From Naegleria gruberi (lineage: Eukaryota): a DNA stretch of 64,000 nucleotides. The stretch lies in the NCBI GenBank assembly GCA_000004985.1, contig GG738888.1. The stretch is one strand, 5' to 3'. Below, piece after piece: positions 2,489 through 53,000 of the stretch. The notes under the pieces are model-generated. The model saw nothing but the letters and a program-made list of their open reading frames with translations. It was not told where the DNA came from and did no database searches. Position numbers and translations under genes: made by a program. Within the stretch, counting starts at the first letter, position 1. Each line of letters starts with the position of its first letter.

Positions 2489-2606
2489 GACTACGGCCAT
2501 ATCACGATGAATGCACCTCATCCCGTCCGATTTGAGAAGTTAAGCATCGTCGAGCCACATCAGTACTGAGGTTGGAGACAACTTGGGAACCTGTGGTGCT
2601 GTAGTC
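2489..2606 (+). rRNA. 5S ribosomal RNA (copy 1)
   Basis: A 118-nt sequence GACTACGGCCATATCACGATGAATGCACCTCATCCCGTCCGATTTGAGAAGTTAAGCATCGTCGAG...GGTGCTGTAGTC matches the eukaryotic 5S consensus (CCATA.CAC, CATCCCGTCCGAT, AAGTTAAGC, GTACT, GGGAGAC-like blocks). The 5' GACTACGGC pairs with the 3' GCTGTAGTC to form helix I. It is followed immediately by a T5 run. Confidence 0.8.
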
Positions 2607-2611
2607 TTTTT
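2607..2611 (+). terminator. Pol III terminator T-run after 5S copy 1
   Basis: TTTTT lies directly 3' of the 5S helix I. Confidence 0.5.
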
Positions 2612-3283: not shown

Positions 3284-3353
3284 TCGGGTGTGGTATAGTG
3301 GTAGCATTCCAGACTGTCACTCTGGCGACCCGGGTTCAATTCCCGGCACTCGA
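3284..3353 (+). tRNA. tRNA-Asp (anticodon GTC)
   Basis: A cloverleaf can be drawn. The acceptor stem TCGGGTG/CACTCGA has one G-T wobble. The anticodon stem CCAGA/TCTGG carries the loop CTGTCAC, giving anticodon GTC. The T-stem is CCGGG/CCCGG with loop TTCAATT. An A-box (TGGTATAGTGG) and a B-box (GGTTCAATTCC) are present. The sequence resembles the conserved eukaryotic tRNA-Asp(GUC) family. A T5 run sits 7 nt downstream. There is no intron and no encoded CCA. Confidence 0.8.
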
Positions 3354-3359
3354 GATTAA

Positions 3360-6365: not shown

Positions 6366-9208
6366 TATTCGTCATCAGAATCAGCTGCATGTCTAGACAA
6401 TAAAGCGTCGAAATCGTCCTCGACAACATTTGATTTTCTGCTTGGGAAATTGTAAGTACTTCTTTGTGGAATTACAGGGCTAGCATCATCGTCATTTTCA
6501 GAATCATGATGTAAGAAAGAGGTTGGAGAAAGAGGTTTGGAAATTGCTGGTTGGTAGGTAGTAGTTGGTTGAGGAGTATCTTCGTCATCAGAATCATCTG
6601 CAAACTTGTTCAAAATAGAGTCCAAACTACCTGGTTCTGGTTTAGAAGGAGCCAATTCAACTACTGGTTGACTGATTGGAGACTTTCTTGGAGAAATCTT
6701 AGTTTCTGATGAACGTCTTCTATCGTTATTTGTTACAACTGGTTTTGGTGGTTCATCATCTTCAGAGTCAGAATCAGCAAACTTCATTCTGGCAGCCATT
6801 TGATCCAAATGGATTTCTCCTGAATTGACTGCTGAAGTAACAGGCTTAGTTGCAGCAGGTTGAGAACTGAACACTGAGGAAGACATTTTCTTTTCTTTAG
6901 GAGATTCCTCATCGTCTCCTCCCCAATGTTTATCCATCAAAGAGTCAAAAAGCTTTGCATTTTCACGTTGAATTCTTTGTCTTTCCTCTTCTTCCTTTCT
7001 CAATCTTTCTTCTTCTCTTCTCAATTCTTCTTCTTCTTCTTGTATTCTGAGCAAGTTTTCCTTTTCTTGTTCATCCATAAACAAATTATTTTGATCTACA
7101 ACATTTGCTGGAACCTCATTCAAAATATTTTGAATAACATTTGGTTTCTTTGGATCTTGTGTTTGTGGTTTCTTTACAGTTGTTACAGGAGTTGGTTGAT
7201 TAAATGTTGGAGTTGGTTGGTTGAATTGAGGAGTAGGTGGATTAAAGGTTTGAGGAGGGTTAAAAGGTGGAGATGTAATTGCACTTGTTGGTGAGTCTTG
7301 AGGAATAAGTTGTGGCATATCAGGTACAGTGCTACCTGCCTTTCTATATTCATCATACCTGATCATTTCCATCATTTCAATCATGGTTTTCATGGCCTTT
7401 AAATATTTAGTAAATTGGTCAACATTCAAAGATGTTTGCACGGCAATTGGAGAAATTGAAGGCATTATTCTACATGCTATAATCTTAGTCAATCCTGGAT
7501 CATTTCTCTTTTGTAAAAGTTTAGAAATCTTAAGATAAACACCAACACAGGTAATTAAAAGTGGTGCAGAGAGTTGAGCACCAGATCTTTCAGCTCCATA
7601 AAGAGGAGCAAGAGATGATTCTAAAATTGGTATAATTGTAGCAGATATTACAGAGGTTTCAAAATGTGGTAAAATTTTGCCAAGACAAACAATACCATTA
7701 ATTCTTACACTTTGATTGTTAGTATTGTGACAAATCAACTCAATAGGTGGCAATAAAGTAGATTTGAAATCATCATAGGTCATTCTCTCTTCGTTCAAAC
7801 ATTCTTCACATCTCTTCATGGCTTCATTTTGAATTTCTGGGAACTTGCTATCTAGACATCTAATCAAGAATGGAATTAAACAAAGTCTATGGTCTTCATC
7901 AGTTGTCTTATTCCACATCAAGTTGAAACTTTCCAGAATTTTCAATGGAATTTTTGCAGGAGTGCTTTGCATCAATGCAAACTTTGAAAGAGTAGGCAAA
8001 ACTTGCTTACTAAATTCCTTGACTGTCATTCTTTCACTCAATACAAGTACGTTTGGCAATGCATGTAATAACATCTTTAAATCTTTGCATTCATTCAATA
8101 ATGGAGGTAAAATTTTAGAAAAGACAATACTGTTGGAAAATCCTTCATCTGGAATGTCTTCAACTCCATTAATCAATTGTTGAGGTTTAGGTGCTTTAAG
8201 CATAGGAGCAAGTGTAGACAAGAATTGTGCCTTCTTGACAGGCTCTCTAAGCTCCATACTGGCAAGATATCTCAATGCCCTAACTTCATTTCCGAATAAT
8301 AGTTCACAATTTGAAAGAAGGAAATGTGAGGTAGGTCTTTCCTGGTGTTTCAATGAGCATGAACTCAATAATGATTCTCTGATTTCTTGTGGAAGCTTGT
8401 TAATGTTCTTTACAACTTCATGCAATCTAGAAACGTTATTGGTGTATGCATTAATATCTTGATCAGATTCCAAAATAGAATGTGATTTTTCAAGAAGTAT
8501 TTGCAAATAAATAAGGGTAAAAGAAAAAATATCGGAAGAATTACAAGGATTTTGTTCTAACACATATTCAGGTGCTGTATAATCCAATGATGGAAGGAAA
8601 TCTCTTTTTTGAAAGTTTCTTTTGAAGAGAGTCGGTGCAGAGTTTGTTTCCGTAGATCCTAATGCTGTAAATGAAAAGTGAAATCCACTAATTTTCCAAT
8701 GACCATCAGTTGTAATATAAATATTATTTGGATGCAATCCAGCGTGAGTTAGTTTTGCATTTTGATGGCAAAAAGTTAAAGCTTCCATTACTTGACACAT
8801 TCCATACTTTAATTCCAACTTGGTTAAACGATAATTCTTCATCATTGGTGATACGTCAGGAATGTTTTGATGATTTCTAAACACTAAATTGTTCAATGAT
8901 CCTAGTATCGGTTCGGTTATCATCGCCAACATTGTTTTTGTTTCAAAGAATTGTTGTTGGGGAGACAGTATTAGAGGATGCCTGAGTTTTTGTAGCATTA
9001 GGCTTTCATTCTTGAAGTAATTTATCACAGTTTGAAGATTATTTCTTCCATAGACAGCTTCAATATCTTTAAAAGCACAACAAAACACAGAAACTTCCTC
9101 TCTTGTTTGTCTGTGAGTTCCGTTATGTATTCTCCAAAGGCAAAAAGGACCACCAGTTGCAAATGGTTTTTCTCCAATAGTATAATCCTTTTCTAATTGA
9201 TTGCCCAT
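6362..9208 (-). CDS. SCY1-like protein (N-terminal pseudokinase + HEAT repeats + coiled-coil/acidic tail)
   Basis: 948-aa single exon, ATG at 9208. The N-terminal kinase-like domain lacks canonical catalytic motifs (..QKLRHPLIL..., ...HAGLHPNNIYIT...). A HEAT region carries the SCYL-conserved ...NGIVCLGKILPHF... block. A charged coiled-coil (EEEEELRREEERLRKEEEERQR) and an acidic Ser/Asp C-terminus follow. Confidence 0.65.
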   Translation of the reverse strand: MGNQLEKDYTIGEKPFATGGPFCLWRIHNGTHRQTREEVSVFCCAFKDIEAVYGRNNLQTVINYFKNESLMLQKLRHPLILSPQQQFFETKTMLAMITEPILGSLNNLVFRNHQNIPDVSPMMKNYRLTKLELKYGMCQVMEALTFCHQNAKLTHAGLHPNNIYITTDGHWKISGFHFSFTALGSTETNSAPTLFKRNFQKRDFLPSLDYTAPEYVLEQNPCNSSDIFSFTLIYLQILLEKSHSILESDQDINAYTNNVSRLHEVVKNINKLPQEIRESLLSSCSLKHQERPTSHFLLSNCELLFGNEVRALRYLASMELREPVKKAQFLSTLAPMLKAPKPQQLINGVEDIPDEGFSNSIVFSKILPPLLNECKDLKMLLHALPNVLVLSERMTVKEFSKQVLPTLSKFALMQSTPAKIPLKILESFNLMWNKTTDEDHRLCLIPFLIRCLDSKFPEIQNEAMKRCEECLNEERMTYDDFKSTLLPPIELICHNTNNQSVRINGIVCLGKILPHFETSVISATIIPILESSLAPLYGAERSGAQLSAPLLITCVGVYLKISKLLQKRNDPGLTKIIACRIMPSISPIAVQTSLNVDQFTKYLKAMKTMIEMMEMIRYDEYRKAGSTVPDMPQLIPQDSPTSAITSPPFNPPQTFNPPTPQFNQPTPTFNQPTPVTTVKKPQTQDPKKPNVIQNILNEVPANVVDQNNLFMDEQEKENLLRIQEEEEELRREEERLRKEEEERQRIQRENAKLFDSLMDKHWGGDDEESPKEKKMSSSVFSSQPAATKPVTSAVNSGEIHLDQMAARMKFADSDSEDDEPPKPVVTNNDRRRSSETKISPRKSPISQPVVELAPSKPEPGSLDSILNKFADDSDDEDTPQPTTTYQPAISKPLSPTSFLHHDSENDDDASPVIPQRSTYNFPSRKSNVVEDDFDALLSRHAADSDDEY

Positions 9209-39864: not shown

Positions 39865-39982
39865 GGCTACGGCCATATCACGATGAATGCACCTCATCCC
39901 GTCCGATTTGAGAAGTTAAGCATCGTCGAGACACATCAGTACTGAGGTTGGAGACAACTTGGGAACCTGTGGTGCTGTAGTC
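39865..39982 (+). rRNA. 5S ribosomal RNA (copy 2)
   Basis: 118 nt. It is near-identical to copy 1 apart from two substitutions (position 2 is G instead of A; CGAGACACAT instead of CGAGCCACAT). It has the same helix I pairing and is followed by a T6 run. Confidence 0.8.
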
Positions 39983-39988
39983 TTTTTT
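39983..39988 (+). terminator. Pol III terminator T-run after 5S copy 2
   Basis: TTTTTT lies directly 3' of the 5S sequence. Confidence 0.5.
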
Positions 39989-42134: not shown

Positions 42135-44915
42135 TCAAGTAAAAATTTTGGTGAGTGTCTCTGTTAGTATTCTCTTGGTTTCATCCAACAAATTTCCGTC
42201 TATTGGAGTCGAACGAACAGTCAACACTGAAACTGATTCTACCAACTTGTTTGATTTCTCAGTTAGTACAAAGTTAATGACAGGAATCTTGTTAATCTGA
42301 CATGCAGTGGCAACAGCTAATGTGCTTGGTGTTGGCGAACTTCCAACTAGAATAACAGCTGTTGCTTGTTGTTGTTGGATAGACATGTCAAAGTGATACA
42401 TGGTTTCAGCTGCAGAGCTCAGATTTGTTTGAGCTGTATCAAACTCTCTGCTCAACATGAAGTCATTGAACGACTTGAATTTTGTAATCTTGGATAATTC
42501 ATCCGAATCTATTTGGGCAATGGATTGATCGGCAACTCCCAGGCTATATTGAATAGTGAATGGTAACTCTAAACTACTTAACATTTTAAGAATAGTTCTT
42601 CCTTCATTTTGATTACTCAGGAAAACGAAAGCAGTTCTCAGATCATTATTTCGGTAAGAGTTCATTAATCTATTACCTCTCTGAGTTTCCTTTTGAATAA
42701 TAAGAGATCTTGCTTCACTGGTGCCTTGTACTCTTCCAGTTGTATCTCCATTATTACTAATTTGCATATAATCACCTGAATATGAATTTGTTTCTAGTGT
42801 TCGAGAAACTGGCATGACGAAACATCTTATATTGGCGTACTTTCTTGCATTGGAACATAGATGCCAGTCCTCTCCAGTGGCCCATGAGAACATCTTTTCT
42901 CTGAACAATAGTTTAACCCACTCCCTCTCCATGAACCAACTTCCACCGACAACATCCACCTCAATGATCTGTTCTGAACCAGAGACAGGTCCATAAAAAT
43001 AATCCTCAGCTGTTGGAGTTCCTTTCGTTCCAAGAATTCCTCTGTAATTATTGGTATTGATAGTGTGAATGGCTGCCTCTAAAAATCTCTTCTCAGGAAT
43101 GCAATCATCATCAAAAACAGCAATATACTTGGTTGGTGATTGTAGCGCAAGTTGAAATCTTCCAAAATATTTGAGCTGCATTTCTCCCTTATTGATAAAG
43201 AGTGAAATATTATTGGATGTGGCAAGTAACTTGGCCTCTTGTATTTCATTTTCAATCTCCTCTGCTTTAGGCGATGCAAAAAAGACCATCCAAACTACTT
43301 TAGGTTGATGAGTTTGTGAGAGGAGAGCTTGCATCCATCTCTTCACTAGACCTGTTCTCTTATACAAACCAACAACGACAGTGACAGAAAATTCATCAGA
43401 GGTCTTCGTTGCTGGAGTGTATGCGCTAGGTAATGCGAATAATTCTTGCATGGTGAGTGGATCTTTTGGTTTTGATCTTTCCAATAATTCCTTCTTTCTA
43501 CTTTCGAATGGTAAGAAATTTTGAGAGTAAACACTTTCTGCAATTGAATCTTGAATGAATTGAGTGGAACATTCACTAGATTCTGGTAATTTGGAGGTGA
43601 CAAAATCACGAACAATTTTTGAAATTCTCATGCTAGCTTTTCCATCTCCAAATATGTGTTTTGAAAGAATTAGTTTCGAATTTTGTGAATCCTTGATTGC
43701 GTCGGTCATGGCTTTCACAATGTGATGATAATTAACACCTATCTTTTTAATAGTTCCAATGTATATTCCCTCTGGTCTCTCAGTTGTATCTCGCATGAGT
43801 ATAACAGGTTTTCCAATACTTGCTGATTCCTCTTGAATGCCACCAGAGTCAGTAACCACAATGTCAGCTTCACTAATGACATGTGGAAAGATGTCATAGG
43901 CAATTGGATCAACTAGTTGGACATTATCCAAAGAAGATAACACTTCATGTACTACACTCTTAGCATTTGGATTTGGATGAACAGGTAGAATGACCATGAC
44001 GTTCTTACCAAATGTGTTGGAAATTGTTTTGATGGCATTACACATCTCTTTAAAGTGTGGAATGTTCTCTCTTCTGTGCATGGTAACAAGAATTACAGTT
44101 CGATGTGAAGATGTAGTCGCATCAACATGCTTGGTTTTAAAACTTCTGATGTTTTGAAGCAACTCTGGAATTATTTTTGGTGGGAGAGACTTTAAGGAAT
44201 AGAACGAATCAATACCAGTGTTACCAGTGACATGCACATGCTGTGGACAGATGCCTTCTCTAACAAGAGCTGCTTTAGAAAATTCTGTTGGAGCGAACAA
44301 GAGACTGGCAAACGAGTCAATCACTTTACGATTCAACTCCTCTGGGAATGGACTATTGAAATCATAAGATCTCAATCCAGCTTCTACATGTCCAACTGGT
44401 ATCTTTAAATAACTGGCTGCAAGGGCAGCAACAAGAGATGTAGTTGTGTCGCCTTGAACCAACACCATGGAGATTGGCCCTTGCTTTTCAAATTCTAAAC
44501 TAATCTTTTGGAAGGCAAGTGTGAAGAAAGAGGAGATGCTTTGATTGGGAGTCATTAACTTCAAGTCAATGTCCACATGTTGATGAAATACACCAAGAGT
44601 TTGCTTTAAAATCTCACTATGTTGACCAGTACTCAACACAATCACCTCCAATTCAGAGTGATGGTTTGACTTGAGATGTGAAATTAGTGGAGCACATTTG
44701 ATAGCTTCTGGTCTTGTTCCCAAAACTATGACTACTCTTGGCATGTTCTTCTTGTGAGGAATGAGAACACTTTCATGGTTTTCATTGGAATGTGGTCTGA
44801 CCAGAACAACATCTGAATCAATAGCTGACTTGTTAGTTCTCAATAGAAAAAAGAAAACGAAACTAATCACCAATAATGTTGCACACACAATAGCGAGCTT
44901 AAATATCTTACTCAT
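42135..44915 (-). CDS. Type II membrane protein: UDP-GlcNAc 2-epimerase (non-hydrolysing, WecB/MnaA-type) fused to a GT-A (GT64/EXT-C-like) glycosyltransferase domain plus an unknown C-terminal domain
   Basis: 926-aa single exon with an N-terminal signal anchor (LAIVCATLLVISFVFFFLL). Epimerase_2 hallmarks are present: ...VVIVLGTRPEAIKCAPL..., ...STGQH..., ...HVEAGLRSYD..PFPEE.NR..., ...HRREN..., ...DSGGIQEE..IGKPVILMRDTTERPEG... A second domain follows, with ...FSVTVVVGLYKR...KYIAVFDDDCIPEKRFLE...VDVVGGSWFM...ATGEDWHLC... It resembles the GT64 (EXTL2/EXT C-terminal) DxD fold. Confidence 0.75.
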   Translation of the reverse strand: MSKIFKLAIVCATLLVISFVFFFLLRTNKSAIDSDVVLVRPHSNENHESVLIPHKKNMPRVVIVLGTRPEAIKCAPLISHLKSNHHSELEVIVLSTGQHSEILKQTLGVFHQHVDIDLKLMTPNQSISSFFTLAFQKISLEFEKQGPISMVLVQGDTTTSLVAALAASYLKIPVGHVEAGLRSYDFNSPFPEELNRKVIDSFASLLFAPTEFSKAALVREGICPQHVHVTGNTGIDSFYSLKSLPPKIIPELLQNIRSFKTKHVDATTSSHRTVILVTMHRRENIPHFKEMCNAIKTISNTFGKNVMVILPVHPNPNAKSVVHEVLSSLDNVQLVDPIAYDIFPHVISEADIVVTDSGGIQEESASIGKPVILMRDTTERPEGIYIGTIKKIGVNYHHIVKAMTDAIKDSQNSKLILSKHIFGDGKASMRISKIVRDFVTSKLPESSECSTQFIQDSIAESVYSQNFLPFESRKKELLERSKPKDPLTMQELFALPSAYTPATKTSDEFSVTVVVGLYKRTGLVKRWMQALLSQTHQPKVVWMVFFASPKAEEIENEIQEAKLLATSNNISLFINKGEMQLKYFGRFQLALQSPTKYIAVFDDDCIPEKRFLEAAIHTINTNNYRGILGTKGTPTAEDYFYGPVSGSEQIIEVDVVGGSWFMEREWVKLLFREKMFSWATGEDWHLCSNARKYANIRCFVMPVSRTLETNSYSGDYMQISNNGDTTGRVQGTSEARSLIIQKETQRGNRLMNSYRNNDLRTAFVFLSNQNEGRTILKMLSSLELPFTIQYSLGVADQSIAQIDSDELSKITKFKSFNDFMLSREFDTAQTNLSSAAETMYHFDMSIQQQQATAVILVGSSPTPSTLAVATACQINKIPVINFVLTEKSNKLVESVSVLTVRSTPIDGNLLDETKRILTETLTKIFT

Positions 44916-45768
44916 TTTTTTGAAACTTAACTTTCAGTGTTAGTGCATTAACGTTGTGGAGTTTACAAGAACAGGAGTTGGCACAACAATACTCTCTACC
45001 AAGTATTTCTAACAGGTTAAAAAAACAATTGTTTGCACTCCAACGATCATCTTTGGAAGATATTGTTTCAGAAATCACAAATATGGCTACGAATTAACGG
45101 TTATGGCATCCATACTGTACTTCCAATTCCCATTTTATCAAACCACCGAAAAACAAAAGGAATTGAAATCCAACTCTCTGGAAAACTATCATCTTGTACT
45201 GCATTTCATCCTTTGTTCACTATTCCATTCCTTGACGAAATTCAAGCAATTTCTAATTAATGATTGGAAAAAGAGTTCGAGTTAGAGGAAGATTCAACAG
45301 AGTGTTGAATAATTTAGAAACGATGCATTCGTTGAATCATTCTCTTGCTTATTTAGGATTAGCTGTGGACTAGATATTAACCTTTCATTGTTGGTAAGTT
45401 CGTATGTTATGTTACTGGCCACCAAATTGGGAACAGCGAAAGGAAATATGTGTGGGCTTTGCTGTGCCAAACTACTGAATACCCATTCTCAATCAATGAT
45501 GATTAGTAAAGGTTTTTCTTCTCATTGTTGTTGTTACGGATGTGCATTCTAGAACTCTTTAAGGTGATTTCCTATTCGAAAGTTGAACTTTTAAGATCAT
45601 AGAGTGAGAATTCTTGAGAGTTGAATCCTAGATGGAATAGAAACACAATGTCGTTTCAGAATATTGGATAGGTTTGCAGATTTTTCAATCATTTAAGAAA
45701 ATATTCAACAGAGCTCACAAATTATTTATGATTGATACAAAATTTTTGATTCAAAATTGAATATTCAG

Positions 45769-46170
45769 TTATTTACGCTTGTAGAGATCGAATTTCTTGT
45801 TTCTCTTTCCACCTCTTCTATTCTTTCTATTCTTTCTATATTTTCTATTCTTCTTTCCATAAGTATCAAATCTTCTCTTTCTATTGTAATTTCTCTTCTT
45901 CTTTCCATAGACATCAATCTTCTTTCTGATAACTCTCTTCTTTCCATATCTTCTCTTCCAGCCCTTTCTCTTTCCGTAGGTGTCCAAATATTTGTGAACC
46001 TTTCTATTCTGTCTGTTTCTTCTCTTAACTCTGTACTTTCCCTTATTGTTCTTTCTAATGTACAAGGAGAGAGTTGATGCTTGTTCTTCAGCACTTACTT
46101 CACTAGTGAATGAGAGTGCAAACACAAGCAATGTCAAGGCAATCAATAGAATTGAGACGAATCTTTTCAT
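45769..46170 (-). CDS. Small secreted polycationic repeat protein (signal peptide + K/R/Y-rich tandem repeats)
   Basis: 133 aa. It begins with a signal peptide MKRFVSILLIALTLLVFALSFTSEVSA and a short acidic spacer. About 5 tandem repeats of the form D-x-Y-G-K-K-x-R-x-Y-x-x-x-R-R follow, roughly 50% Lys/Arg with regular Tyr. The DNA shows the matching ~50-60-nt direct repeats (ttctattctttctat...). Confidence 0.5.
   Translation of the reverse strand: MKRFVSILLIALTLLVFALSFTSEVSAEEQASTLSLYIRKNNKGKYRVKRRNRQNRKVHKYLDTYGKRKGWKRRYGKKRVIRKKIDVYGKKKRNYNRKRRFDTYGKKNRKYRKNRKNRRGGKRNKKFDLYKRK
45780..45960. repeat. Tandem direct repeats (coding) underlying the K/R/Y repeat protein
   Basis: Visible reiteration of tcttctattctttctattctttctatattttctattcttctttccata-like units. 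The nested antisense ORFs 45757..46077 and 45765..46094 are artifacts of this repeat. Confidence 0.5.
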
Positions 46171-47089: not shown

Positions 47090-50000
47090 ATGTTAAAGTG
47101 GTGTGTCCTCATAATTATTCTTCTCTCAACCATTTTCACATCACATGCACAATATGTCACACAAACAGTGGCAGGTAATGGAATTTCCCAAAGTTTGGGA
47201 GATGGTTTTCTTGGAACACAAGCGAGTTTAAACAGTCCAAGAGATGTTGCTCTTGACATGTATGGTAACATGTACATAGCTGAAGAGAAGGCACACAAGA
47301 TTAGATTCATAAACAAGACAACAGGTATTATTTCAACATTGGTTGGAAATGGCATTGCTGGAAGTGTTGGAGATGGTGGATTGGCTATTAATGCACAATT
47401 ACATTTACCATTCTCTCTAGCAATTGATTCGACTGGTCAAAATTTGTTCATTTCTGACAGTGGAAACCATGTTATTCGTCACATTAACATGACAACACGT
47501 ATCATTTCAACTGTTGCTGGAACAATGCGTAGTCCTGGATTTGGTGGTGATGGAAATATTGCCACACAAGCACTATTAAACACTCCTAGAGGAATTAGAC
47601 TTGATTGGAAGGGAAACATTTATATTGCAGGTAGTGTAGTTTATTGACAATTTAATACTTACAATAATGCAAGATACTTCAAATTGTGCCATTAGAATGG
47701 TCAATAGAACTAATGGGCTCATTTCAACCATTGCTGGTAAGGGATCAATTTGTGGAACTAAATTATTAGGAAATGGTGGATTAGCAAATAGTACAACACT
47801 TTACAATCCGTTTGGTGTTGCGGTCGACTCATTTTTCAATGTTTATATTGCTGAGAGTTCTGCAAGTGTTATTCGATTTGTTGATAAATCAACAGGTATT
47901 ATTTCAACATATGCAGGTGATGGCTCTCCAGCATATAGCGGGGATGGTGTATTGGCAAGTCAAGCTAAATTGAATTATCCTAATTTTGTAACTATTGACA
48001 ACTTGTCAAATAATCTTTTAATTGCTGACACTGCTAATTTTGTAGTAAGATATGTGAATAGAACAACTAGAATTATATCGACCATTGCAGGATATAATGT
48101 TAATGGAAATAGTGGTGATGGTCTTCCAAGTAAGCAATCATCCTTTTCTTCCTTATTTGGAATAACAACAGACATGGAAGGAAATGTATACATTGTAGAT
48201 GCACCGAATTCTGTTGTTAGAATACTAATCAAAACATGTGATAGCTTATTATTTACCTGTAATAATCATGGTTCATGTCTTTCATCCCAAACTTGTAAAT
48301 GTAATTATGGATGGAGCACAGAAACATGTATCCAACCAACTTGTTTTGGTATTTTAGCAACCACTAATGTGGCATGTAGTGGACATGGAAAATGTTCATA
48401 TGTGGATTTATGTGAATGTGATATGGACTTTTTTGGTAATGAATGTGAATTCTTTAAATGTTATGGAATTAATTATAATAATCAATCTGTGTGCAGTAAT
48501 GGTAGAGGAAACTGTTCTTCACCAAATAATTGTACTTGTCAGAATAATTATTTTGGTAATGAATGTGAATTAACAACTTGTTATGGAATTGAAAGTAATA
48601 ATTCCAAAGTATGTTCTGGAAATGGTAAATGTATAGGAAAGGATGAATGCTCATGTATGAATGGGTATGTTGGCGACTATTGTCAGCATACTGTTTGCTT
48701 TGGTATTTATGGAAACGAAACATGTTCTTCTAGAGGAAGTTGTATAGCACCTGATAATTGTGAGTGTTTGGATGGCTACGGTGGCAGAGATTGTAGACAT
48801 TATGAAGTTTTTATGGATTTTGAAACTGTTTCCATTCATTCATCTCATCATCTGTTAATGAGAAAGTTAACAAGTGACTTATTGGAGTGTGGAGAGATAG
48901 TATCAGAATCGGATATATTAAAATTGGGGGAGAAAGATTCCCTTAAATGTTATTGGAGGGAATTAAGTGGATTTAGAATATATTTAGGCTATAATCATAA
49001 TATAACACATGGTTCAGTTTTAAATATCATGAATAATCTATTGACCATACATGTTAATGCATCTATTTCAGATCAAATTAGAAAAAGTAATGAAAATGGT
49101 GTTGTAATAGGATTTCCACTTGATGTATTTCCAACTAACAAGGATTTATTAATTAGATCTCAACATGATCAACACTATAATAATTTTAAATCAGTTTCCC
49201 AGAATTGGAAATTTTCTACAGTTATTCGTAATACAATTCATCCAATTCAAGAATTACTAGATAGAAACGATAACAAACCGATCGTTATCATTCCATCAAT
49301 TAATATTTCGGATCTTCAATCACTAACCATATCAACATTGACAATCAATGATTTATCAATTCAATCAACAAGTGAAAGAACATTTGCATTTGAGAAATCA
49401 AAGGATATTCCATCACAATTTAATATTTGGAATGAAATTAGTTCACAATCTTATTACCAAGATTGTATAGGACATAATTGTATAGTTGAATCAACATTAA
49501 TTGGAATGAAAACATCACTCACTTATTCTTTTAATGGATTTTTAATTGTAAAAAGTAAAGAATTTCAAAATAGACAAATATTTAGAATTACAAACAAAGT
49601 TGAAAATGATTTATTGAAAGAAAATTACAAAGGAACAATGCAAGTAGTAGGATTGAATTTAAATTCATACTCTTCTTCTTATTATCAAGTTGATTTGACA
49701 TATTCATCATTTGACATGTTGGATATTTATCTTGTTGGAATTAACAAGACATATTCTAGAAATGAGGCTATTGTTTTATCTACTTCTATTATTGATCCCT
49801 TTGTGTTTACCTACTCAGATATTAATAGTTTTAAACAAAGATGGTCATATCAAAATTCAATTACTAAACAATATGATTCAATTTTTGGAAGTCAGCTCTA
49901 TATTGCACCGCTACCTGTTGGATTATATGATATTTCGTTAAACGTAACTACGAAGTCCAATGTTTATACTTTTTATGGTAAAATTGATATTGTAAATTTT

Positions 50001-53000
50001 GAAAATATTCCATCTATTAACATTAAGCACGTTCCAGCAATTTATCCCTTTGGATCGAATATATATATTGAAATGTCTATAAAGAGCGACATTCCAATCA
50101 AGAAAATTCAATGGAAGTTACTAGAGGGAAAATTTGATAGCAAGCAATCACTAACTAACAATTATAATGAAATTCTAGAACAATCATTTAATCCAATCCC
50201 ACATTTTGTAAATACGCAACAATATATGTTAAATATTGAAAAAAAATATTTGATTGAGGGTGAAAGATATCAATTTCAAATAGTGGCATGGAATGAAAAT
50301 GGTCAATATGCTATCTCTAACATTTCAACACGTATTGATATGTCTCCTAGATTTTGGTGTGATATTTATGATCCAATTGGAGAAAATAAGGCATTTACCA
50401 GTACGTTTGTCGTTAATTGTGTGAATACTATTGCGGAGAGTGTATCTAGTTATTGGATTGATGTTTGGGATAATGATACAAGATTGATGATCTTGTCAAA
50501 TACTCAAAAAAGAACTTTTATTACAAAATTACCATTTACCAAATCTGGTTATTTGAATATTGGTATTAAACTTATCAATATGAATGGTTCATTTTCAAGA
50601 ATATTTAGAAAGGTGAAGGTTAATAATCCTATTTCTGATCTTTCACTACAATCTAGAATTAATTTTATTTTTTTAAATTTTAATATTATAATTGAAGAAC
50701 CTATTTCCATAGATACTATCATTAAACTATCTTGTCTTCTTTCTCTAATTGATAAGAATGATGATTTTACAGAATTAAATTCTGTTGATAAGAATATACT
50801 TGTAAAAAGTTTAACATTATTAATAACAAACTTGGATAAAATTCAACAAATTGCATTAAATGTTGATGACAAGCTAATTCAAATCATTCTTCCACTCCTT
50901 TCCAAAGTTACAACAATTATTCAACACATATCATTACAATCTATTAGTGAAACTGTATTATTACAAAATATTAAGTGGATAATAAGTGGTTACAAAAATA
51001 GTTTTCAATATTATTCTCCTTATATTATGAATCATTTATTAGATTTTACTCATGCTCAAGAATTGGAAACATTGTTTAAGACGTTATTGGTTAAAGGAGG
51101 TGGAATGAAGTCAACAGAAATGCTTCCGAATGTTGTTAATATTATACGCAGGTCCTATTTCAGTAGTGGGCTGGGTTTACAAAATCAAACAATTTCTAGA
51201 ATTTTCAATTCATTTGGAGCGAAGGGATTTTATGAAGAAATTGATACTGCATTACATTTATTAAATGGAAAACAATTCAATTTCCATTCTAATCAAGAGG
51301 ATATTCAAATAGATTTCAAAGTTTTAAACGATGTTCAATATAATCTAATTACTCCTTACAAAGTTAATTTGATTTCATATACTACCAAATCATATTTGAA
51401 CGTATCAGATAGTGTATCTTTGGCATTCATGTATGAGACTGGTGAGATAATACCTACTACAAGTTCTAAATATTCCACAGTTCAAATCAAATTCAATAAT
51501 GTGACACTAACTCTCGAAGAGGATAACATTTCATTATTGAAAGTTTTTTGTGTATCATATGATTATAGTAAGGATACTTGGAACACTGATGGAATTGAAA
51601 CGATATTTAATATTACACAAATCATGAATAGAACTATTACATTAAATGTAACTTGTCAATATCTATCATCTGTGGGCTTGACAACAATATCAATTCAAAA
51701 AGGTTTTTCAACCTACAGAAATACAAGTAGTAGTATTATTCCAAATACTCCACAATCAGATAAGATAATAGCGATTGTAGTGCCTATTTCAATATTGTTA
51801 CTCATTTCCATTTTAGTAATTCTAATATGTATAGGAATTTACTATTACAGAAGTAGATATTGGAGCAAAAGATTGAAAAATGAAAAAGAAATGGAACAAA
51901 AACTCTTAGAAATTGAATTGGAATTGAATGATAAAAACCCTCAACCCATATCCTATCTAATTCCCATTGAAGAATTGGAGTTGATAAAAAAGATTGGAGA
52001 AGGAGGGTTTGGCCAAGTTTACCTTGCAAAATGGAAACATGTTCAAGTTGCAGTGAAATGTGTCAGTAATTATGAAGATGAAGAACAAATAGAACAATTC
52101 AACGGAGATGATATGGAAGATGCATTTGAAAAGGAAGTTTTATTGTTAAATAGTTTAAAACATCCAAATGTTATTCACTTTTTTGGAGTTTGTCTTACTC
52201 AAACTAAAAAGTTAATGATTATGGAATATTTGGAAGGTGGGTCATTGGATAGAATTGTTTCAGAACTTCGTTTAAAAAGAAGGAAAATGTTATTGAGAGA
52301 AAAGATTAGAATATTGTTTGGTGTTTCGAATGGAATGAGTTATTTACACAATTTGAAACCTTCATCTATTATTCATAGAGATCTCAAGACGGCAAATATT
52401 CTACTTGATAATTACATGCAACCAAAAGTGTGTGATTTTGGATTATCAAAATTGATTGGAAATAATAATTCAACAACAATGACTACTAATTTAGGAAGTA
52501 TTTTTTATATGGCAGTAAGTGTTACTATATTACTATTTGCTAATTATGGATAGCCTGTAAGTTTTTTGTCGATATGGATGCGATTTAAATATTAAGGAAT
52601 TAATTGGAGATGGCTATCAAAATATTACAAACAAACTTGATGTGTACAGTTTTGGAATTATCATGTATGAACTCTTCTTTGAGGAAAATCCATTCCTTAA
52701 TCAAAATTCAAAGAAAATTCATCGGTTCTCCTCCAATTCATCATCTTCATCAAGCTCGTCAGAACAATCAATGGAATTGAATAGTTTTAGCGTACCTGTT
52801 CGAGTATTGAATGGAGTTAGACCTAAAATACCCTTCTCTAATATGATTGAACAAAGACAGTGGATATCAGAGTTTATGAGTGACGATTATGACCATGAAA
52901 AGAAGAGTGATATGAAAACAATCAATGATTTGTGTAAACTTGTGGATGATTATATCATGTTGATGAAAATGTGTTGGGATGTTGATCCTGAAAAAAGACC

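What the first reader, a model, noticed from the sequence alone, without database searches (positions are those of the whole stretch)
45769..46170. Secreted polycationic Tyr/Lys/Arg tandem-repeat mini-protein
A canonical signal peptide is followed by about 100 residues that are roughly half Lys/Arg with regularly spaced Tyr and Gly in five DxYGKKxRxYxxxRR-type repeats. The matching DNA shows recent tandem amplification. This composition recalls antimicrobial or nucleic-acid-condensing peptides and Tyr/Lys adhesive proteins. It has no obvious homologue and is the sort of gene that annotation pipelines discard as low complexity.
Basis: seen in the sequence. Interest (0 to 1): 0.5.

Follow-up and report, generated by a model that had tools for sequence, protein, structure and literature searches.

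The report
Secreted hyper-cationic repeat protein, Naegleria
The ORF is a real, already-annotated but uncharacterised Naegleria gruberi gene for a small secreted, disordered protein that is nearly half Lys/Arg; it belongs to a small Naegleria-only gene family whose function is untested, most plausibly a charge-driven binder of bacteria or other polyanions.

Summary
Window 45769-46170 (-) is an intact 133-aa ORF. It has a canonical N-terminal signal peptide followed by a 106-aa mature part with 46% K+R, net charge about +43, pI 11.6, no Cys and four [ILVF]-D-x-Y motifs (0 of 200,000 shuffles reach four).

The window is Naegleria gruberi nuclear DNA. The ORF is identical to the GenBank 'predicted protein' NAEGRDRAFT_71069 (XP_002673814.1, D2VQ94), so annotation did not discard it.

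It does have homologues. There are four N. gruberi paralogues and two environmental relatives, but nothing outside Naegleria-like organisms among 1.84 billion representative proteins.

Compared with a paralogue's DNA, dN/dS is 0.19 at dS 0.60. Third codon positions carry 42 of 79 substitutions, and every indel inside the ORF is a multiple of 3. The K/R frame is therefore the selected one, not the antisense Ser/Leu ORF.

'Recent tandem amplification' is true only for a 9-nt (RKN)n array. The larger repeats predate the paralogues.

There is no Pfam or PDB match, AlphaFold finds no confident fold, and there is no amphipathic periodicity.

Function is inferred, not shown. The best guess is an extracytoplasmic polycation that binds polyanions such as bacterial prey or nucleic acids. 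A dibasic-processed peptide precursor is the more novel alternative. Interest is modest.

The parts
45769..46170 (-). Complete single-exon CDS including the TAA stop, 133 aa. It equals N. gruberi NAEGRDRAFT_71069 / XP_002673814.1 / D2VQ94.
   Evidence: 100% identity over the full length; dN/dS 0.19 against the paralogue
46090..46170 (-). Signal peptide, residues 1-27 (MKRFVSILLIALTLLVFALSFTSEVSA). The predicted cleavage after VSA is by inspection only. It is the most conserved segment of the family (MKR[FI][VI]SILLIALTL invariant).
   Evidence: the only AlphaFold segment with pLDDT 84-86; dN/dS 0.20 in this segment
46057..46080 (-). Conserved N-terminal motif of the mature protein, A-S-T-L-S-L-Y-I (residues 31-38), preceded by the acidic EE(Q). 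S-T-L-S is invariant in all family members.
45772..46056 (-). Polycationic, low-complexity domain predicted to be disordered (residues 39-133). It contains 27 dibasic sites.
45976..45987 (-). hDxY motif 1 (LDTY, residues 62-65), followed by GKRK
   Evidence: read
45907..45918 (-). hDxY motif 2 (IDVY, residues 85-88), flanked as RKK-IDVY-GKKK. Invariant in the N. gruberi paralogues P0001-P0004, not in P0007.
45859..45870 (-). hDxY motif 3 (FDTY, residues 101-104), flanked as KRR-FDTY-GKK. D-T-Y is invariant across the whole family.
45781..45792 (-). hDxY motif 4 (FDLY, residues 127-130), followed by the C-terminal KRK and the stop. The five family members with a known 3' end (P0001-P0004 and L002/L003) end hDxYK[KR]K; the end of P0007 is unknown because of the gene-model fusion.
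45816..45852 (.). 9-nt tandem array (TTCTATTCT on +; AGAAAGAAT = R-K-N on -), 4.1 copies. It is 15 nt longer than in the paralogue and is the only recent amplification.
45831..45923 (.). 48-nt (16-aa) unit x2 at 81% identity: IDVYGKKKRNYNRKRR / FDTYGKKNRKYRKNRK. This duplication is old, because both units are present in register in all paralogues.
45714..45768 (-). Probable 3'UTR. It carries two short motifs conserved in the paralogue and in the distant environmental relative: CAATTTTG at 45752-45759, extended as CAATTTTGAATCAA (45746-45759) in this window only, and a TTG(T/C)GAG core within 45714-45723 (window reads AATTTGTGAG).

Best explanation
This is a real, expressed-type nuclear gene of Naegleria gruberi. 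It encodes a small protein that enters the secretory pathway through a cleavable signal peptide. The mature product is a 13.5-kDa, cysteine-free, intrinsically disordered polycation of about +43. It is one of at least five paralogues of a Naegleria-restricted family, defined by a near-invariant signal peptide, an STLSxY motif, 2-5 hDxY 'stickers' embedded in K/R/N spacers, and a C-terminal hDxYK[KR]K. The proposed mechanism is inferred, not shown. The protein would act outside the cytosol (medium, cell surface or food vacuole) as a high-charge-density binder of polyanions, with the spaced Tyr/Ile/Val/Phe residues adding cation-pi or hydrophobic contacts. For a bacterivorous amoeba the likeliest targets are bacterial envelopes (LPS, teichoic acids) and released nucleic acids, so the effect would be agglutination, permeabilisation or condensation in the manner of protamine, polylysine or histatin, not amphipathic pore formation. 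Shown: the gene is real, the correct frame is under purifying selection, the family exists and its charge is conserved. Inferred: secretion, disorder, high expression, the target and the biological role.
For: Gene reality: dN/dS is 0.185 at dS 0.60 against the paralogue in L001. Substitutions per codon position are 19/18/42 of 127 each (chi2 17.7, p 1.5e-4). All four indels inside the ORF are multiples of 3 (6, 12, 3, 15 nt), while the one outside is 7 nt. DNA similarity between paralogues begins about 10 nt before the ATG and ends about 56 nt after the stop. Family: four N. gruberi paralogues plus ENA environmental relatives. Charge is the conserved property. Net charge is +32 to +44, or 0.36-0.41 per residue, in members only about 50% identical, and K<->R is the commonest replacement (5 of 23). 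Secretory signal: the N-terminus is conserved, with acidic residues straight after the hydrophobic core. Disorder: outside the signal peptide, no 10-residue block averages above pLDDT 59, and there is no Pfam or PDB match. Codon bias typical of well-expressed genes: AAG makes up 82% of Lys codons here and 93% in the paralogue, against 51% in 13 neighbouring ORFs (p 1e-3 and 3e-6), and TAC is 50% against 24%. Two transcript-sized contigs of a relative from two separate samples share both ends, and one abuts an Illumina adapter. The hDxY motif is non-random (0 of 200,000 shuffles).
Against: There is no experimental evidence of transcription, secretion or activity for this gene. Its identifiers appear in no searchable paper and not in one N. 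gruberi proteomics supplement. There is no amphipathic helical or strand periodicity beyond shuffles, so it is not a classic membrane-lytic AMP. A pure charge function does not explain why every Asp sits in an hDxY motif, nor why spacers such as GKKRIIRKK are invariant among paralogues. No annotated homologue was found in N. fowleri or N. lovaniensis, so any role is not genus-wide, or the small ORFs are unannotated there. The 18-residue hydrophobic core could act as an uncleaved type II anchor instead of a cleaved signal peptide.
Confidence: 0.4

Rival explanations
1. Polyprotein precursor. A kexin/furin-like convertase cuts at the many dibasic sites, carboxypeptidase trims the basic residues, and several copies of very short hDxY peptides are released (LDTY, IDVY, FDTY, FDLY). 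Those followed by Gly could be C-terminally amidated. The peptides would act as secreted signals and the basic spacers would be discarded.
For: Three of the four hDxY motifs here are bracketed by two or more basic residues on both sides; the first (LDTY) has HKY upstream and GKRK downstream. Most motifs in the other family members are bracketed the same way. Three of four here have the Y-G-K-K/R arrangement that in animal prohormones signals cleavage plus amidation. The protein ends hDxY-K-R-K. hDxY copy number varies from 2 to 5 among members while the motif itself is kept. One paper infers a P-proprotein (convertase) domain in 'Excavata', species unspecified (PMC2770060).
Against: The Gly is not conserved at homologous positions: FDTYG here is IDTYR in three paralogues, and class-2 motifs are hDxYK. 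Among the four closest paralogues (P0001-P0004) spacers are conserved as strongly as the motifs, and 46% K/R is far more than processing sites require. Precursor spacers in known systems are usually acidic or neutral. Tetrapeptide products would be unusually short. No literature links an amidating enzyme to Naegleria. The presence of a convertase or PAM in N. gruberi was not tested here.
Confidence: 0.15
2. Structural or adhesive matrix component of the cyst wall, pore plug or substrate glue. Lys/Tyr-rich chains would coacervate with acidic polysaccharide and be cross-linked through Tyr, as in mussel foot proteins or dityrosine walls.
For: It has a signal peptide, regularly spaced Tyr (10 of 106), Gly and Lys, no Cys, and is disordered. 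Naegleria encysts and adheres to substrates (general knowledge). Strong codon bias is compatible with bulk production.
Against: Tyr is 9%, not the 20-30% of mfp-3/5 (figure from memory). There is no carbohydrate-binding domain and no evidence for cyst-specific expression. The neighbouring epimerase/GT2 gene is not a conserved neighbour, because the paralogue in L001 sits between unrelated genes.
Confidence: 0.15
3. Membrane-anchored (uncleaved signal-anchor) protein that displays the polycationic tail on the lumenal or extracellular face. It would serve, for example, as a capture surface for anionic particles during phagocytosis.
For: The hydrophobic core is long for a signal peptide (18 residues, F4-F21) and unusually conserved.
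Against: There is a good small-residue cleavage site (V-S-A; G-V-S-A in the paralogues) directly after the core, and the acidic C-flank is typical of cleaved signals. No predictor was available to decide.
Confidence: 0.1
4. It is not a protein-coding gene. On this view it is a purine-rich low-complexity tract that happens to be open, or the antisense Ser/Leu ORF or an antisense RNA is the functional product.
For: Both strands carry ORFs of more than 100 aa, and the same is true in the paralogue. The sequence is low-complexity.
Against: Third-position excess in the K/R frame corresponds to first-position excess in the antisense frame. dN/dS is 0.19, indels are in-frame, the ATG, signal peptide and stop position are conserved in all relatives, and there is no Rfam match.
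Confidence: 0.03

Closest known systems
Histatins (human salivary cationic His/Tyr/Lys/Arg peptides, e.g. histatin 5)
   Same: Both are secreted through a signal peptide, Cys-free, disordered and cationic, with interspersed Tyr and K/R clusters. Histatins act without amphipathic pore formation. Paralogue P0007 is also His-enriched (…RKHKKRHLHKRRPHKY…).
   Different: There is no sequence homology. This protein has 1 His in 106 residues, is 3-4 times longer, and has a much higher charge density. The comparison with histatin composition is from memory.
Protamine / polylysine-type polycations and the Arg-rich 'cationic killer/cell-penetrating' peptides (e.g. PR-39)
   Same: Both have extreme K/R content and a charge-driven binding mode to nucleic acids and anionic surfaces. 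PR-39 is reported to be taken into N. gruberi food vacuoles and to induce encystment or death (bioRxiv 10.64898/2026.08.23.746575), which shows that such polycations are bioactive in this organism.
   Different: Protamines are nuclear and lack a signal peptide. PR-39 is Pro/Arg-rich. There is no homology, and the hDxY motifs have no counterpart.
Hydra arminins / C. elegans NLP-caenacin-type lineage-specific host-defence peptide families
   Same: These are taxon-restricted, multi-copy small genes built as signal peptide, then a short acidic stretch, then a cationic or Gly/Tyr repeat region. They have no homologues elsewhere (recalled from memory).
   Different: No sequence relationship exists. 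Those families are processed to peptides of 20-40 residues, and activity has been demonstrated for them but not here.
Multi-copy prohormone / pheromone precursors (e.g. yeast alpha-factor, cnidarian/placozoan amidated peptide precursors)
   Same: Both have a signal peptide and repeated short motifs bracketed by dibasic sites. Some copies here carry the Gly-Lys-Lys/Arg arrangement.
   Different: The spacers here are themselves polybasic and conserved. The Gly is not conserved, the products would be only 4 residues long, and the processing enzymes have not been demonstrated in Naegleria.
Mussel foot proteins mfp-3/mfp-5 and diatom silaffins (secreted Lys/Tyr or Lys/Ser repeat polycations)
   Same: Both are secreted, repetitive, disordered, Lys-rich proteins with Tyr and Gly, and they form coacervates with polyanions.
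   Different: Tyr here is 9% (mfp is much higher). The basic domain contains no Ser (silaffins are Ser/Lys-rich and phosphorylated). It is Arg-rich, and there is no homology.

Membership tests
Unnamed Naegleria hDxY polycationic secreted-protein family (NAEGRDRAFT_71069, 71365, 68008, 68479, 50395 N-terminus; ENA relatives) | Significant full-length sequence similarity to the other members | tested here: met
   E-values of 6.6e-39 to 1e-08 against the paralogues and environmental relatives; alignments A1 and A2
Unnamed Naegleria hDxY polycationic secreted-protein family | N-terminal MKR[FI][VI]SILLIALTL signal peptide followed by the STLSxY motif | tested here: met
   Invariant columns in A5. 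It is absent only in P0004, whose N-terminus looks mis-modelled.
Unnamed Naegleria hDxY polycationic secreted-protein family | Two or more [ILVF]DxY motifs in K/R-rich spacers, and a C-terminus of hDxYK[KR]K followed by the stop | tested here: met
   Four motifs here and 2-5 in the relatives. The C-terminus is conserved in P0001-P0004 and L002/L003; it cannot be assessed in P0007, whose model is fused.
Classic amphipathic cationic antimicrobial peptides | Net positive charge and a secretory signal | tested here: met
   Net charge +43; signal peptide identified by inspection
Classic amphipathic cationic antimicrobial peptides | Amphipathic helix or beta structure (high hydrophobic moment) | tested here: not met
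   The maximum 18-residue hydrophobic moment at 100 and 170 degrees is no higher than in shuffles (69% and 77% of shuffles reach or exceed it). AlphaFold predicts a helix only at pLDDT about 50.
Classic amphipathic cationic antimicrobial peptides | Demonstrated antimicrobial activity | not testable with these tools
   Needs a synthetic or recombinant protein and MIC or agglutination assays
Histatins | His-rich composition and homology to the HTN1/HTN3 family | tested here: not met
   1 His in 106 mature residues (sequence). There are no non-Naegleria hits in the exhaustive HMMER search and no Pfam hit.
Dibasic-processed, amidated multi-copy peptide precursors | Signal peptide plus repeated candidate peptides bracketed by dibasic sites | tested here: met
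   RKK-IDVY-GKKK, KRR-FDTY-GKK and NKK-FDLY-KRK
Dibasic-processed, amidated multi-copy peptide precursors | Conserved Gly amidation donor after each peptide copy | tested here: not met
   FDTYG here aligns with IDTYR in P0002, P0003 and P0004. The C-terminal and several P0007 copies are hDxYK.
Dibasic-processed, amidated multi-copy peptide precursors | The organism encodes a kexin/furin-type convertase and PHM/PAL | not tested
   The N. gruberi proteome was not searchable as such. The literature search found no Naegleria PAM report. There is only an unspecific statement about a P-domain in 'Excavata'.
Mussel-foot-type Tyr/Lys adhesives | Very high Tyr (DOPA) content with Lys/Gly | tested here: not met
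   Tyr is 10 of 106 (9%) and Arg is 21%. DOPA modification cannot be tested here.
Silaffin-type polycationic repeat proteins | Ser/Lys-rich repeat units | tested here: not met
   There is no Ser in the basic domain, residues 39-133 (sequence)

The most novel reading that the evidence does not exclude
The family would be a heterolobosean peptide-signal precursor. Convertase cleavage at the dibasic sites would release multiple hDxY tetrapeptides, some Gly-extended and possibly amidated, that act as secreted cues for density, encystment or differentiation. This would be multi-copy prohormone-style peptide signalling in a lineage far from animals, fungi and plants.
Probability: 0.1. Interest if true: 0.75.

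Novelty: new member of a known kind. Interest (0 to 1): 0.3.

Why it matters
If the protein is secreted intact, it would be one of the most charge-dense secreted proteins described in a free-living amoeba. It would also be a candidate effector for how Naegleria handles bacterial prey or builds extracellular material, areas where almost no molecules are known apart from the saposin-like naegleriapores (that comparison is from memory). A practical point follows from the sequence. With 27 dibasic sites it is nearly invisible to standard tryptic proteomics, because only EEQASTLSLYIR and a few 6-7-mers are usable. Absence from proteome lists therefore says little. The gene is nonetheless an annotated orphan family with no functional data, and secreted cationic low-complexity proteins are a familiar class, so the finding is modest unless the peptide-precursor reading proves true.

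Tried and rejected
- Pfam scan of the ORF gave no family. A PDB profile search returned only a chance hit at E 0.99. The Rfam scan found nothing at the locus.
- The profile search with A2 against 5.8 billion proteins added no new members and was capped at 8000 low-complexity candidates. A profile of the N-terminal 46 residues returned only a chance bacterial hit at E 0.2.
- Two JGI metagenome scans, one with peptide patterns and one with the conserved signal-peptide DNA pattern, found nothing.
- Exact look-ups of the N. gruberi paralogues' DNA failed. Only the environmental contigs L001-L003 gave DNA.
- Literature searches for the gene, protein and UniProt IDs gave zero papers. The IDs were not in the two held supplements of an N. 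gruberi copper proteomics paper. Searches for Naegleria with peptidylglycine/amidating, kexin, cyst-wall proteome and secretome gave nothing specific.
- I skipped a fold search on the AlphaFold model because pLDDT of 57 would make any matches meaningless.
- Functional linkage to the neighbouring UDP-GlcNAc 2-epimerase/GT2 gene or the NHL-EGF-kinase gene is rejected. The paralogue in L001 has unrelated neighbours (RCC1/WD40-like and a membrane protein), and there is no second family copy in the window.
- The non-coding and antisense readings are rejected.

Full report
**What is there**

Window 45769..46170 on the minus strand is an intact ATG-to-TAA ORF of 133 aa. The sequence is MKRFVSILLIALTLLVFALSFTSEVSA|EEQASTLSLYIRKNNKGKYRVKRRNRQNRKVHKYLDTYGKRKGWKRRYGKKRVIRKKIDVYGKKKRNYNRKRRFDTYGKKNRKYRKNRKNRRGGKRNKKFDLYKRK.

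- The first 27 residues have the three-part layout of a cleavable signal peptide: a basic MKR, an 18-residue hydrophobic core, and V-S-A at -3 to -1. I judged this by inspection, because no predictor was available.
- The remaining 106 residues contain 27 K and 22 R (46%), 10 Y, 10 N, 8 G and no Cys. The pI is 11.6, the net charge about +43, and there are 27 dibasic positions.
- All four Asp residues of the basic domain sit in [ILVF]-D-x-Y motifs (LDTY, IDVY, FDTY, FDLY), each followed by G/K-K/R-K/R. None of 200,000 shuffles gives four such motifs.

**Where it comes from**

The window is eukaryotic nuclear DNA at about 33% GC. Its genes are long and mostly intronless, including kinases, NHL/EGF, LRR, Dis3/RNB and Nrap. 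It also carries two dispersed 5S rRNA genes and a tRNA-Asp.

The ORF is 100% identical over its full length to a GenBank/UniProt entry of Naegleria gruberi: 'predicted protein' NAEGRDRAFT_71069, XP_002673814.1, D2VQ94.

**Is it a real gene, and on which strand?**

An environmental contig (L001, ENA) carries a near-identical allele of the paralogue NAEGRDRAFT_71365, which gives DNA to compare.

- Nucleotide similarity between the two loci starts about 10 nt before the ATG and ends about 56 nt after the stop. The flanks are unrelated.
- Over 125 aligned codons, dN is 0.11 and dS is 0.60, so dN/dS is 0.19. The value is similar for the signal peptide (0.20) and the basic domain (0.18).
- An alignment made at the nucleotide level, without regard to frame, puts 19, 18 and 42 substitutions at codon positions 1, 2 and 3 (chi2 17.7, p 1.5e-4). 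The four indels inside the ORF measure 6, 12, 3 and 15 nt, while the indel in the 3' flank is 7 nt.
- In the antisense Ser/Leu ORF (45757..46077 +) the variable position would be codon position 1, which is not a coding pattern. That ORF, and a similar one in the paralogue, is simply the complement of AAG/AGA codons.
- No Rfam family matches the locus.

The K/R reading frame is the one under selection.

**The family**

Word-indexed and exhaustive HMMER searches find four further N. gruberi proteins.

- NAEGRDRAFT_71365: 133 aa, 68% identity.
- NAEGRDRAFT_68008: 114 aa.
- NAEGRDRAFT_68479: 110 aa. Its N-terminus is aberrant and lacks the signal peptide, so the gene model probably has the wrong start.
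- NAEGRDRAFT_50395: 565 aa. The first ~135 residues are a family member with five hDxY motifs. The rest is Q/N-rich and looks unrelated, which suggests a gene-model fusion.

Two ENA metagenome proteins from different samples (P0006 and P0008; contigs L002 and L003) are about 50% identical to the query. They come from a related organism. Their gene calls read through a TAG, and with the standard code they end ...VD[FL]YKKK like the rest.

Nothing else in 1.84 billion representative proteins reaches E 1e-3. Profile searches and two JGI metagenome scans added nothing. As annotated, the family is restricted to N. gruberi-like amoebae. No N. fowleri or N. lovaniensis protein was hit, though small ORFs may be unannotated there.

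Features conserved across the family (the C-terminus cannot be judged for NAEGRDRAFT_50395, whose model is fused):
- the signal peptide MKR[FI][VI]SILLIALTL;
- acidic residues immediately after it;
- an S-T-L-S-x-Y motif;
- K-Y-I-(D/G);
- one universally conserved R-R-I/F-D-T-Y;
- the C-terminal hDxYK[KR]K.

The number of hDxY motifs varies from 2 to 5. Charge density stays at 0.36-0.41 per residue even at about 50% identity, and K<->R is the commonest replacement.

**'Recent tandem amplification'**

TRF reports a 9-nt array (AGAAAGAAT = R-K-N on the coding strand) x4.1 at 45816-45852, and a 48-nt unit x2 at 81% identity at 45831-45923.

Relative to the paralogue, the window copy has 15 extra nucleotides exactly in the 9-nt array (KNRKYRKNRKNRR versus KNRKIRR), so that expansion is recent. 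The larger hDxY units are present in register in all N. gruberi paralogues and therefore predate them.

**Hints of expression (indirect)**

- Lys codons are 82% AAG here and 93% in the paralogue, against 51% in 13 neighbouring ORFs. TAC, CTC and TTG are also enriched. From general knowledge of AT-rich eukaryotes, this G/C-ending bias usually marks well-expressed genes. I did not calibrate it on Naegleria ribosomal-protein genes.
- The two environmental contigs (616 and 636 bp, from different samples) end at the identical 3' base and begin within a few bases of each other. One starts with an Illumina adapter. That is what transcript-derived contigs look like, but assembly breaks at paralogue boundaries could mimic it.
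- A short 3'UTR stretch (a CAATTTTG core and a TTG(T/C)GAG core) is conserved even in the distant relative.
- The gene identifiers occur in no searchable paper and not in one N. gruberi proteomics supplement. With 27 dibasic sites the protein would be almost invisible to tryptic proteomics (inference from the sequence).

**Structure**

AlphaFold2 with the family alignment gives mean pLDDT 57. Only the signal-peptide helix is confident, at 84-86. The basic domain is modelled as a long helix, with 10-residue block means of pLDDT 46-59, which amounts to no reliable fold. The hydrophobic moment for helical or strand periodicity is no higher than in shuffled sequences. There is no Pfam or PDB relative.

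**Mechanism**

What is shown: a selected, signal-peptide-bearing, hyper-cationic and probably disordered protein family in which bulk charge and the hDxY motifs are the conserved properties.

What I infer (confidence about 0.4): the mature chain acts outside the cytosol as a polyanion binder. The K/R provide electrostatics, and the spaced Tyr/Ile/Val/Phe act as 'stickers'. In a bacterivore, the obvious polyanions are prey envelopes and nucleic acids in food vacuoles or the medium. This resembles protamine, polylysine or histatin action more than amphipathic pore formation. The conserved acidic residues right after the hydrophobic core would help keep the N-in, C-out orientation despite the cationic tail (inference).

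Rivals:
- **Dibasic-processed precursor of hDxY(-Gly) tetrapeptides (0.15).** This is attractive because three of the four motifs here are bracketed by basic pairs on both sides and three of four here are followed by G-K-K/R. It is weakened by the non-conserved Gly, the conserved polybasic spacers and the untested presence of a convertase or PAM.
- **Cyst-wall or adhesive matrix protein (0.15).**
- **Uncleaved signal-anchor display protein (0.1).**
- **Non-coding or antisense (0.03).** Effectively excluded.

Genomic context does not help. The neighbours here are an epimerase/GT2 fusion and an NHL-EGF kinase, and they differ from those of the paralogue.

**Comparison with known families**

In kind, this resembles taxon-restricted secreted cationic peptide families (histatins, Hydra arminins, nematode NLP/caenacins) and polycations such as protamine. 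An exogenous Arg-rich peptide, PR-39, is reported to enter N. gruberi food vacuoles and trigger encystment or death (bioRxiv 10.64898/2026.08.23.746575), so such molecules are bioactive in this organism.

Membership in any named family fails. There is no homology. It is not His-rich, so not a histatin. Tyr is only 9%, so not mfp-like. There is no Ser in the basic domain, so not silaffin-like. There is no amphipathic moment, so it is not a classic AMP.

**Verdict**

This is a real orphan gene family of secreted polycations, already present in databases as 'predicted protein'. It is of modest interest (0.3) unless the peptide-precursor reading (about 10%) proves correct.

Noticed in passing
window 2489-2607 (+) and 39865-39983 (+); 3284-3354 (+): Two dispersed 5S rRNA genes (106 and 99 bits) lie 37 kb apart among protein-coding genes. 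A tRNA-Asp(GTC) lies near the first one.
   Followed up: no
window 42135-44915 (-): A 926-aa ORF fuses a UDP-GlcNAc 2-epimerase domain (E 2e-95) to a family-2 glycosyltransferase. This is a bacterial-style sugar-pathway fusion in a eukaryotic genome and a possible horizontal acquisition. It lies immediately 3' of the target gene, but no functional link is supported.
   Followed up: partly
window 47090-52553 (+): ORFs 47090-47647 and 47667-52553 are in different frames, yet both carry teneurin-type NHL repeats. A roughly 43-nt GT...AG segment near 47631-47673 looks like a short intron, which would make one large NHL-EGF-transmembrane-kinase gene transcribed divergently from the target gene.
   Followed up: partly
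N. gruberi proteins P0007 (NAEGRDRAFT_50395) and P0004 (NAEGRDRAFT_68479), not in the window: Two paralogue gene models look wrong. P0007 fuses a complete family member (residues 1 to ~135, five hDxY motifs) to an unrelated Q/N-rich 430-residue C-terminus. P0004 replaces the signal peptide with an unrelated N-terminus.
   Followed up: partly
L002 1-616 and L003 1-636: Two environmental contigs from different ENA samples carry the same relative of this gene. They share the identical 3' end and nearly the same 5' end, and L003 begins with the Illumina adapter CGACGCTCTTCCGATCT. Their 87-nt 3' flank is 100% identical, whereas the 5' flank differs at 21 of 103 positions. The ENA gene calls read the TAG stop as sense (163 and 164 aa instead of 139 and 140).
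   Followed up: partly
window 45714-45759 (-); L001 about 1600-1650; L002 about 540-610: Short motifs in the 3' flank, CAATTTTG and TTG(T/C)GAG, are conserved between paralogues and in the distant relative, although the rest of the flanks is unalignable. They may be a 3'UTR regulatory or polyadenylation element.
   Followed up: partly
window 45732-45758: A 14-nt direct repeat (TTGATACAAAATTT x1.9, 92% matches) lies just 3' of the stop codon and overlaps the conserved CAATTTTG motif region.
   Followed up: no
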